A stretch of 62,544 nucleotides of DNA, filler included, from Pirum gemmata (taxonomy: Eukaryota): the NCBI GenBank assembly GCA_002812295.1. It is 24 parts of 24 records of this genome, joined end to end, with 100 filler letters (N's around TTAATTAATTAA, not from the genome) between each part and the next. Parts side by side here need not be neighbours in the genome. Positions count along the whole stretch, not along the records: positions 49,751 to 51,971 come from PDIN01007626.1; 23 more parts are not named here. One strand, 5' to 3'. The first letter of the stretch is position 1. Each line of letters starts with the position of its first letter. This document shows positions 50,838 to 51,971 of this stretch, one piece after another. Below the pieces are notes generated by a model that had not been told where the DNA came from, did not search any database, and saw only the letters and a list, made by a program, of their open reading frames with translations. A program made the position numbers and the translations under genes.

Positions 50838-51085
50838 ATGTTAACGACCAAAGAAGTGTTTTGTCTTGGAGTATTTACGAAAAATGAACTTAGTAATTGT
50901 TATTCTTATTATTATTCTTATTATTATTCTTATTATTATTCTTATTATTATTCTTATTATTATTCTTATTGTTATTGTTATTGTTATTATTCTTATTGTT
51001 ATATACTTATTCTTATTCTTATTAATATTATTGTTGTTATTTTTATTACTATTATCATATTTTTATTCTTATTTTTGTTATTATT

Positions 51086-51133
<48 letters not shown>

Positions 51134-51495
51134 ATTATTATTATCATTATTATTATTATTATTATTAACTGTTATTATAATACTATTATTTTTCTTATTT
51201 GTATCATAGATAATAAAATTTTTTAAAAAAAACCTTGAGACTCTGTATAAATATAGACTATTCGATACCGAAAAAAGAATTATTCGCTATTGTTTATGGG
51301 TTAAAACACCTTAAGTGGTATCTAAGGGGTACTCACTTCTCACTATGGACTGATAATAGCTCACTGTCCTATCTCCATGAGGCTGAGATTGATAAATCAG
51401 CCATAGGGAAATGGTTCGACGTCATATATGAATTTGACTTTGATATCCAACATATCCCTAGAGAACAAAATTATGAAGCAGATTTGCTATCAAAA
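50838..51495 (+). mobile_element. Ty3/Gypsy-type RNase H domain split by a GT-AG intron (50893-51256)
   Basis: The spliced product is FTKNELNYSIPKKELFAIVYGLKHLKWYLRGTHFSLWTDNSSLSYL...IGKWFDVIYEFDFDIQHIPREQNYEADLLSK, matching the Ty3 consensus ExNYSxxEKELLAIV...YLxGxxFxLxTDH...RW...EFDFxIxHxPGxxNxxADxLSR. Confidence 0.85.
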
Positions 51496-51723
51496 GTTTG
51501 TGCTGATTCAAACAGACAACAACTAAAAAACATAAGAATGAGTTACTTGTGTTTAGANACTATGAAGCAGATTTGCTATCAAAAGTTTGTGCTGATTCAA
51601 ACAGACAACAACTAAAAAACATAAGAATGAGTTACTTATGTTTAGATACTAGAAATAAAATACATAACAATAAGATAAATAATGATTATTGTGAAACGTT
51701 TAATACCCTAACCCTAACCCTAA

Positions 51724-51971
51724 CCCTACAAAACAACAATTGAAAATAAAAATAAAATAAAAAATACAAACAACTTTGAAAAGTGTGATTGGAAATTAAA
51801 AACAAAATTTTTCCAAATAGCAGAACAACTATATGGGCCACACACTGTGGACCTATTTGCTACTGCATACAACACACAGTTAGAGAGATACTTTACTCTT
51901 AACAACTCTGCTTTTCAATATAATTGGAAAAACGAAAATGGTTGGGCTAACCCTCCTTTTCACTTAATAAA
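51724..51971 (+). CDS. DIRS/phage-Dam-type DNA N6-adenine methyltransferase domain (truncated by the scaffold end)
   Basis: Not in the ORF track. Reads CDWKLKTKFFQIAEQLYGPHTVDLFATAYNTQLERYFTLNNSAFQYNWKNENGWANPPFHLI, with NPPF at 51949-51960. Confidence 0.88.

What the first reader, a model, noticed from the sequence alone, without database searches (positions are those of the whole stretch)
50838..51971. Ty3/Gypsy-type RNase H followed directly by an N6-adenine methyltransferase domain
Seen: a Ty3/Gypsy-signature RNase H (NYS..KELFAIV, YLRG..F.LWTD, KW, EFDFDIQHIP). About 200 nt later, after removing an assembly duplicate, the same strand of the same scaffold encodes DWKL...GPHTVDLFA...N...RYF...AF...W...WANPPF. 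Known: the RT-RH-MT order is characteristic of DIRS1-like tyrosine-recombinase retroelements. Their RNase H has a different signature (HINxLELxA...DNxT), whereas Ty3/Gypsy normally has integrase here. Inference: this is a chimeric retroelement lineage, or a derived host gene, coupling a Gypsy pol to a 6mA methylase with an intact NPPF motif. It may mark or protect its own cDNA.
Basis: partly seen in the sequence, partly recalled or inferred. Interest (0 to 1): 0.85.

Follow-up and report, generated by a model that had tools for sequence, protein, structure and literature searches.

The report
Broken gypsy retrotransposon carrying adenine methylase
This is a cut-short, frameshifted piece of a gypsy-type jumping gene, likely from a single-celled relative of animals, with an adenine-methyltransferase domain just after its RNase H; the design is real, but a 2026 preprint has already described it, so this is an ordinary extra example.

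Summary
Scaffold 49751-51971 encodes the last 79 residues of a Ty3/Gypsy-type RNase H (Pfam E 1e-11). 199 nt later come the first 62 residues of a Dam-family adenine methyltransferase with DLFA and NPPF intact (E 8e-9). Contigs of two public runs skip the 89-nt duplicate, so it is an assembly artefact. Three full-length relatives (1341-1432 aa; 57-67% identical over the RNase H region) read RT-RNase H-Dam-DDE integrase in one frame, so this is neither DIRS nor chance nesting, and integrase is not replaced. The nearest named proteins are from Abeoforma whisleri and Pirum gemmata, two of the three species of the 'Ichthyosporean DAM-LTR' lineage in bioRxiv 10.64898/2026.05.21.726589. Two additions from relatives: the domain's closest solved fold is the RNA methylase PCIF1/CAPAM rather than E. 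coli Dam, and there is a divergent C-terminal chromodomain. Methylase activity is untested. Verdict: real, already known kind, interest 0.2.

The parts
49751..51971 (.). One 2221-nt scaffold. The window is 24 such pieces joined by N44-TTAATTAATTAA-N44 linkers, so neighbours beyond the linkers are not genomic context.
50893..51209 (+). Likely host intron (GT..AG, 317 nt, simple repeats).
   Evidence: An X1 contig laid from 51210 has a loose end equal to 50863-50892 (tables 7-8); ends GTAATT..CATAG.
51257..51495 (+). C-terminal part of a Ty3/Gypsy-type RNase H (79 codons from 51259). The copy begins here; other copies continue upstream with ..SGGFRGSQLN-YS (loose end translated by eye).
   Evidence: Pfam PF17917 E 1.3e-11; Ty3 top PDB hits; loose end before 51257 in X1, X2 and X3; 57-67% identity to P0006-P0008
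51472..51649 (+). 89-nt tandem duplicate around the single N at 51558; an assembly overlap artefact
   Evidence: D4; contigs of X1 and X2 skip 89 nt (table 5)
51585..51783 (+). Linker of about 66 codons between RNase H and methyltransferase. It holds a (CCCTAA)3 tract at 51706-51723 and a one-base frame shift.
   Evidence: 51699-51773 was skipped as repeat by the read tool, so it is unconfirmed in runs
51784..51971 (+). N-terminal 62 residues of a Dam-family N6-adenine methyltransferase domain (DLFA at 51850-51861, NPPF at 51949-51960), cut by the scaffold end
   Evidence: Pfam PF05869 E 8.3e-9; 60-66% identity to P0006-P0008, P0010, P0011, P0157; a 423-nt X1 contig is laid on 51835-51971 with its first 137 letters and so runs on past the scaffold end (table 8)

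Best explanation
This is a 5'-truncated, frameshifted and therefore likely dead copy of a multicopy Ty3/Gypsy-type retrotransposon of the ichthyosporean DAM-LTR lineage, whose full-length relatives encode RT, RNase H, an adenine methyltransferase, a DDE integrase and a divergent chromodomain in one polyprotein. How the intact element likely works: the Pol polyprotein is packaged with the element's RNA (established for Ty3/Gypsy). The methyltransferase, sitting right behind RT-RNase H, would then put N6-methyl groups on adenines of the nucleic acid being copied, most likely the new cDNA or the RNA:DNA hybrid (inferred, about 45%). After integration the host's AMT1 system would keep the mark and leave the insertion transcribed (the preprint's model; not tested here). 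The window's copy lacks RT and the first RNase H catalytic aspartate and is out of frame before the methylase, so it likely makes no working enzyme.
For: Domains. One-frame RT-RH-Dam-INT relatives P0006, P0007 and P0008, with integrase HHCC and D-D-E motifs. RNase H tree: the window lies among 17 long-spacer (LTR-type) rows against 30 of 47 DIRS-type rows, support 100/99. Profile scores are 104 bits (LTR-type, four closest left out) against 30 bits (47 DIRS-type). 13 of the 17 show integrase by Pfam or motif; the other 4 are cut short before it. Dam tree: the window is in a 9-row group, support 97/89, that holds Abeoforma whisleri (P0008, P0010, P0011) and Pirum gemmata (P0157) proteins. The RT of relatives separates from DIRS-type RT, SH-aLRT 100. 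The Dam domain is as conserved as RT (P0007 vs P0008: Dam 53%, RT 51%, linkers 15-21%), and NPP is kept in 16 of 17 LTR-type rows. Multicopy: in X3 one unique-flank contig has depth 225, while the main element contigs have 2,800-9,600. This is rough, since the tool warns that depth is no copy number. The preprint reports more 6mA and expression at DAM-LTRs in A. whisleri and S. arctica.
Against: The AU test on the 79-residue RNase H piece did not reject window+DIRS as one clade (p 0.259, lnL 14.9 lower). No run contig bridges 51699-51773, which the tool skipped as repeat, so the RH-Dam join of this copy rests on the window's own gap-free contig 51559-51971. LTRs, gag and this family's own integrase were not seen: no genome is held, and 0 of 80 metagenome loci carried Dam. 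The preprint's heterologous assay showed no 6mA gain. The closest solved folds are RNA methylases, not E. coli Dam. Iyer et al. judged DIRS1 MTase copies likely inactive (PMC4738411).
Confidence: 0.9

Rival explanations
1. Same element, different substrate: the domain works like PCIF1/CAPAM and methylates the element's RNA (for example a cap-adjacent or internal adenine) rather than DNA.
For: The model of the P0007 domain (pLDDT 91) has CAPAM/PCIF1 as top Foldseek match (E 1.9e-4, TM 0.64), against E. coli Dam E 0.07, TM 0.33. VIA Z is 10.8, rmsd 3.1, 136 aligned, and no bacterial DNA Dam is among the 50 entries shown. CAPAM also uses NPPF (PMC8287941). Iyer et al. place DIRS MTases in the PCIF1 clade. 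The E. coli DNA assay was negative.
Against: A shared fold shows no substrate, and the next entry (Z 9.9) is tied within 1 Z. The phage PF05869 family itself had no sequence hit in the PDB, so its true DNA-acting relatives may simply be unsolved. CAPAM's cap-binding helical domain is not part of the match. DAM-LTR insertions carry more DNA 6mA.
Confidence: 0.25
2. The domain is a non-catalytic nucleic-acid or SAM-binding module kept for packaging or targeting.
For: Negative E. coli assay; Iyer et al.'s judgement on DIRS copies; AI notes on other genomes report DAM-LTRs with the motif lost (unchecked).
Against: DLFA-type and NPP motifs are kept in this lineage (NPP in 16 of 17), and the domain is conserved at the level of RT.
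Confidence: 0.2
3. A domesticated host gene, or an exon captured into a host transcript, that fuses RNase H and methylase.
For: An X1 contig runs from a GT..AG junction (50892/51210) into the first 30 nt of the element, so host transcription may read into the fragment.
Against: The spliced join gives no frame that reaches the RNase H from upstream (frames, read by eye). The RNase H is half missing, the methylase is out of frame, and the sequence is multicopy.
Confidence: 0.03
4. A DIRS-type tyrosine-recombinase element, a chance nesting or a misassembly of two repeats.
For: RT-RH-MT order is the DIRS hallmark (PMC3783388); AU p 0.259; the linker was not bridged in runs. The Dam part differs at 4-5 sites from run contigs while the RH part is identical to X1, so the contig could be a mosaic of copies.
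Against: There is no HIN..E motif. The spacer is 66 codons against 5-13 in DIRS-type rows. The same relatives are top hits for both halves and carry both in one ORF, followed by DDE integrase.
Confidence: 0.04

Closest known systems
DAM-LTR retrotransposons, 'Ichthyosporean DAM-LTR lineage' (Fernandez-Moreno et al., bioRxiv 10.64898/2026.05.21.726589; read parts 1-4 of 5 of the main text plus term passages; supplements closed)
   Same: Ty3/Gypsy pol with a Dam domain, NPP catalytic triplet, and nearest named proteins from Abeoforma whisleri and Pirum gemmata, both named in that lineage.
   Different: This copy is a broken fragment. The preprint says the lineage lacks chromodomains, but full-length relatives here, including the A. 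whisleri protein P0008, end in a divergent chromodomain below the Pfam cut-off. The main text has 0 mentions of PCIF1 or CAPAM. Whether this exact family is in their tables could not be seen.
DIRS1-like tyrosine-recombinase retrotransposons (PMC3783388, passages read)
   Same: RT-RNase H-MT order; homologous Dam domain (49% identity to DIRS-type P0004).
   Different: Ty3-type RNase H, long spacer before MT, and DDE integrase (plus a protease domain in P0007 and P0008) in relatives. DIRS lacks both protease and integrase by definition.
Yeast Ty3 Gag-Pol (PDB 7Q5B, 4OL8)
   Same: RNase H C-terminal half aligns over 77 residues with E, D and D positions kept.
   Different: Only RNase H was compared. 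That Ty3 has no methyltransferase is recalled, not tested.
PCIF1/CAPAM cap-specific adenosine N6-methyltransferase (PDB 6IRX; PMC4738411 and PMC8287941, passages read)
   Same: Closest solved fold to the modelled domain of relative P0007; NPPF motif.
   Different: 12% identity; no WW or helical cap-binding domain; it is a cellular single gene, not a transposon module.

Membership tests
Ty3/Gypsy LTR retrotransposon | Ty3-type RNase H | tested here: met
   Pfam PF17917 E 1.3e-11; Ty3 top PDB hits; tree 100/99 and profile 104 vs 30 bits. Caveat: AU p 0.259.
Ty3/Gypsy LTR retrotransposon | Order PR-RT-RH-INT with DDE integrase | tested here: met
   Met in relatives P0007 and P0008 (P0006: RT-RH-INT, no Pfam protease hit). 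Not visible in this copy, which is cut at both ends.
Ty3/Gypsy LTR retrotransposon | RT groups with Ty3/Gypsy, not DIRS | tested here: met
   Relatives only: 11 Dam-LTR RTs plus 5 Dam-less gypsy-like loci against 16 DIRS-type, SH-aLRT 100, quick tree with no named reference sequences
Ty3/Gypsy LTR retrotransposon | Long terminal repeats, PBS/PPT, gag | not testable with these tools
   No genome is held; no Dam-bearing locus was found in metagenome or viral contigs; the DNA of P0006/P0007 was not available
DAM-LTR (ichthyosporean lineage) | Dam domain within a Gypsy pol, between RT/RH and integrase | tested here: met
   Window RH then Dam; relatives RH-Dam-INT
DAM-LTR (ichthyosporean lineage) | Dam domain groups with ichthyosporean elements | tested here: met
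   9-row group 97/89 with A. whisleri and P. gemmata proteins; the window row fills only 46% of the columns
DAM-LTR (ichthyosporean lineage) | NPP catalytic triplet | tested here: met
   NPPF at 51949-51960
DAM-LTR (ichthyosporean lineage) | No chromodomain (descriptive trait in the preprint) | tested here: inconclusive
   Whole-protein Pfam scans of P0006-P0008 list none. Cut-out tails hit Pfam Chromo in 5 of 5 at a lax threshold (best E 6e-5; P0007's 15.5 bits, below the 25.1 cut-off), and their profile finds Clr4 and Polycomb chromodomains at E 6e-6 and 4e-5.
DAM-LTR (ichthyosporean lineage) | Raised 6mA and expression at insertions; host has AMT1 | not testable with these tools
   No methylation data or genome here
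DIRS1-like | DIRS-type RNase H directly fused to MT | tested here: not met
   Spacer 66 codons against 5-13 in DIRS-type rows; 30 bits on the DIRS-type profile
DIRS1-like | No protease and no DDE integrase | tested here: not met
   Closest full-length relatives carry a DDE integrase; P0007 and P0008 also carry a protease domain
DIRS1-like | Tyrosine recombinase and inverted terminal repeats | not testable with these tools
   Scaffold ends at 51971; no flanking DNA of full-length copies
Domesticated host gene | Single copy, intact frame | tested here: not met
   Truncated and frameshifted; element contigs more than 10-fold deeper than the flank in X3

The most novel reading that the evidence does not exclude
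The methylase of ichthyosporean DAM-LTRs is a PCIF1/CAPAM-like enzyme that marks the element's own RNA or RNA:DNA intermediate inside the particle, not double-stranded DNA. Together with an overlooked divergent chromodomain, this makes these elements writer-plus-reader retrotransposons, and it would explain why the published E. coli DNA assay was blank.
Probability: 0.25. Interest if true: 0.6.

Novelty: already known. Interest (0 to 1): 0.2.

Why it matters
The design is biologically interesting: a transposon that may write an 'active chromatin' mark on itself. It was reported in May 2026 for the same group of organisms, so this fragment adds little as a discovery. What remains open is the enzyme's substrate and whether it is active at all. 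The relatives found here (P0006, P0007, P0008), with RT-to-integrase frames open, NPP kept and a well-modelled domain closest to CAPAM, are good test proteins for that question. The broken window copy is not.

Tried and rejected
No whole genome is held for this window, so full-length copies could not be pulled. A scan of viral contigs gave no relative. A scan of metagenome contigs gave 80 distant gypsy-like loci (best-segment identity 26-37%), 0 of 80 with a Dam hit at E<=0.01. A profile of 8 full-length or long relatives found no other piece of the element in the window. PDB sequence searches with the Dam piece and with a 51-row Dam alignment gave nothing meaningful. An intron explanation for the frame shift was tested: the only in-frame GT..AG pair (51585-51783) is contradicted by X1/X2 contigs that read through 51585-51698 and by conservation of the residues after ADLLSK. 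No RNA holder is on record for the stretch; X2 is only guessed to be RNA and X1's kind is unknown, so expression is not shown. X4 holds only short, diverged pieces and was not used. X3 may be the window's own source and is not independent support. No X3 contig covered 51219-51245; that hole proves nothing. 5 of 7 differences between the window and run contigs are synonymous (P about 0.013 at 25% expectation), too few sites to lean on. The wide VIA-align search was not run, so folds missed by Foldseek were not examined. Look-ups of earlier findings by place and by sequence gave nothing.

Full report
Setting. The window is 24 short scaffolds joined by N44-TTAATTAATTAA-N44 linkers. It is AT-rich, with intron-split ankyrin genes nearby, so it is a fragmented eukaryotic assembly. 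The finding lies in scaffold 49751-51971. No whole genome is held.

Observation. The + strand encodes the last 79 residues of an RNase H at 51259-51495 (Pfam RT_RNaseH E 1.3e-11; yeast Ty3 is first and second of 3 PDB hits). It also encodes the first 62 residues of a Dam-family methyltransferase at 51784-51971 (E 8.3e-9, above Pfam's cut-off), with DLFA and NPPF intact and the rest cut off by the scaffold end. An 89-nt duplicate flanks the N at 51558. Contigs of runs X1 and X2, listed under different studies, skip exactly 89 nt there, so it is an assembly overlap. The end of RNase H (YEADLLSK) and the methylase lie on one gap-free contig, 51559-51971. No run contig bridges 51699-51773, because the tool skipped it as repeat.

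(1) With the duplicate dropped, the RNase H frame ends at a stop at 51741-51743 and the methylase frame is one base off. A single shift would have to lie in 51721-51741, and no credible intron fixes it. (2) The element starts at 51257. Contigs of X1, X2 and X3 continue upstream with a different sequence that reads SGGFRGSQLN-YS by eye and matches SGGFKGPQCNYS of P0006. The window has host-like sequence there instead, so RT and the first catalytic aspartate are missing. (4) In X3 the unique flank lies on one contig of depth 225, while the main element contigs have 2,800-9,600. That suggests tens of copies, but depth is no copy number and X3 may be the window's source.

Relatives. A search with the RNase H piece returned 4 proteins of 58 candidates: P0006 (1341 aa, 67%), P0007 (1432 aa, 66%), P0008 (1426 aa, 57%, Abeoforma whisleri) and P0009 (72% over 46 residues, Pirum gemmata). 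P0006-P0008 read RT-RNase H-Dam in one frame; P0007 and P0008 have an N-terminal protease domain. All three have integrase HHCC and D-D-E motifs and a KGPY motif after Dam. A search with the Dam piece against 1.84 billion representatives gave 563 hits at E<=0.001, 150 listed. The top three are A. whisleri proteins. The last homolog search, with P0007 residues 560-920, returned only P0006-P0008 of 944 candidates.

Gypsy or DIRS. Of 159 stored proteins, 97 had a recognisable RNase H end before Dam. Of these, 64 (after dropping the near-duplicate P0159) had at least 130 residues of it: 47 with a spacer of 5-13 residues (DIRS-type, often HIN..E) and 17 with 15 or more. Thirteen of the 17 show integrase; 4 are cut short. 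The window's spacer is about 66 codons. In an RNase H tree (window, the 17, and the first 30 of the 47) the window sits with the 17 at 100/99. Profiles score it 104 bits (13 LTR-type rows, four closest left out) against 30 bits (47 DIRS-type). Against this, the AU test did not reject a window+DIRS clade (p 0.259), which is unsurprising for 79 residues. In a Dam tree of 53 rows (28 of the 47 DIRS-type used) the window falls in a 9-row group (97/89) with A. whisleri and P. gemmata proteins. An RT tree of relatives (11 Dam-LTR, 16 DIRS-type, 5 of 80 loci left after filtering) separates the two types at SH-aLRT 100. The type labels come from architecture, not from named Repbase references.

Host. 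A second family in X1-X3 has flanks that read IDAFTIDWSK and QQVL(E/K)HIKLT by eye, as in P. gemmata protein P0157. The host is therefore likely P. gemmata or a close ichthyosporean; this is inference.

Mechanism. Between P0007 and P0008 the Dam domain is 53% identical, RT 51%, integrase 51% and the linkers 15-21%; NPP is kept in 16 of 17 LTR-type rows. The domain is therefore under selection in the lineage. A model of the P0007 domain (pLDDT 91, pTM 0.86) is a Rossmann methyltransferase whose closest solved structure is PCIF1/CAPAM: Foldseek E 1.9e-4, TM 0.64, against E. coli Dam E 0.07, TM 0.33; VIA Z 10.8, rmsd 3.1, 136 aligned, with the next entry tied at 9.9. This agrees with Iyer et al., who place DIRS MTases in the PCIF1 clade and think them likely inactive (PMC4738411, passages). 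I put about 45% on methylation of nascent cDNA or RNA:DNA hybrid, 25% on RNA, 20% on a non-catalytic role and 10% on other roles such as dsDNA after integration. None is shown. The window copy itself is likely dead (about 85%).

Comparison with what is known. Fernandez-Moreno et al. (bioRxiv 10.64898/2026.05.21.726589; parts 1-4 of 5 read, passages; supplements closed) describe DAM-LTRs and at least four transfers from DIRS. They name an ichthyosporean lineage in P. gemmata, A. whisleri and S. arctica, report more 6mA and expression at such insertions, and report a negative E. coli assay. The DIRS definition is from PMC3783388 (passages). PMC5890265 and PMC12695648 were seen only as search listings. 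One small addition: the preprint says the lineage lacks chromodomains, but the C-terminal tails of five relatives form a profile that finds Clr4 and Polycomb chromodomains (E 6e-6, 4e-5) and hit Pfam Chromo in 5 of 5 at a lax threshold; hhalign against chromodomain-bearing P0158 was weak (probability 49%). AI notes on other genomes reach the same preprint; I found it independently, and the notes are not support.

Verdict. The feature is real and the domains are correctly read. It is a broken copy of an already described kind, probably from a species named in that description. Novelty: already known. Interest 0.2. The open question worth pursuing is the enzyme's substrate, to be tested on intact relatives.

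Noticed in passing
P0132 (2098 aa) and P0078 (522 aa), hits: Ty1/Copia-type polyproteins with a Dam domain: P0132 reads gag-zinc knuckle-Dam-protease-SH3-RVT_2, and P0078 has Dam directly before RVT_2. Both are singletons from unnamed assemblies, and their Dam domains fall among LTR-type rows on long branches. The preprint's main text has 0 'copia' and one four-term paper search found none. These may be undescribed Copia DAM elements, or chimeric assemblies.
   Followed up: partly
C-termini of P0006, P0007, P0008, P0012, P0014: Divergent chromodomain missed in whole-protein Pfam scans, in a lineage described as lacking chromodomains.
   Followed up: yes
window 51934-51969: A second, more deeply covered Dam-bearing family in runs X1-X3 shares this 36-nt NPPF-coding stretch; its flanks read like Pirum gemmata protein P0157.
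   Followed up: partly
window 50709-50879: An X2 contig covers 50713-50879 and leaves at a GTAAGT donor on the - strand, while an X1 contig splices 50892 to 51210 on the + strand. This may be overlapping sense and antisense transcription of a stretch with stops in all six frames.
   Followed up: partly
whole window: 34 tracts of three or more CCCTAA/TTAGGG units, many in apparent introns; telomere-type repeats are used as an internal microsatellite.
   Followed up: no
window 54500-56620: Intron-split ankyrin-repeat coding pieces (Pfam Ank hits for 56380-56616); ordinary host genes on other scaffolds.
   Followed up: no
P0100, P0136, P0156: Dam-like domains fused with dUTPase (P0100) or in one frame with a tyrosine recombinase domain (P0136, P0156; Dam-likeness).
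   Followed up: no
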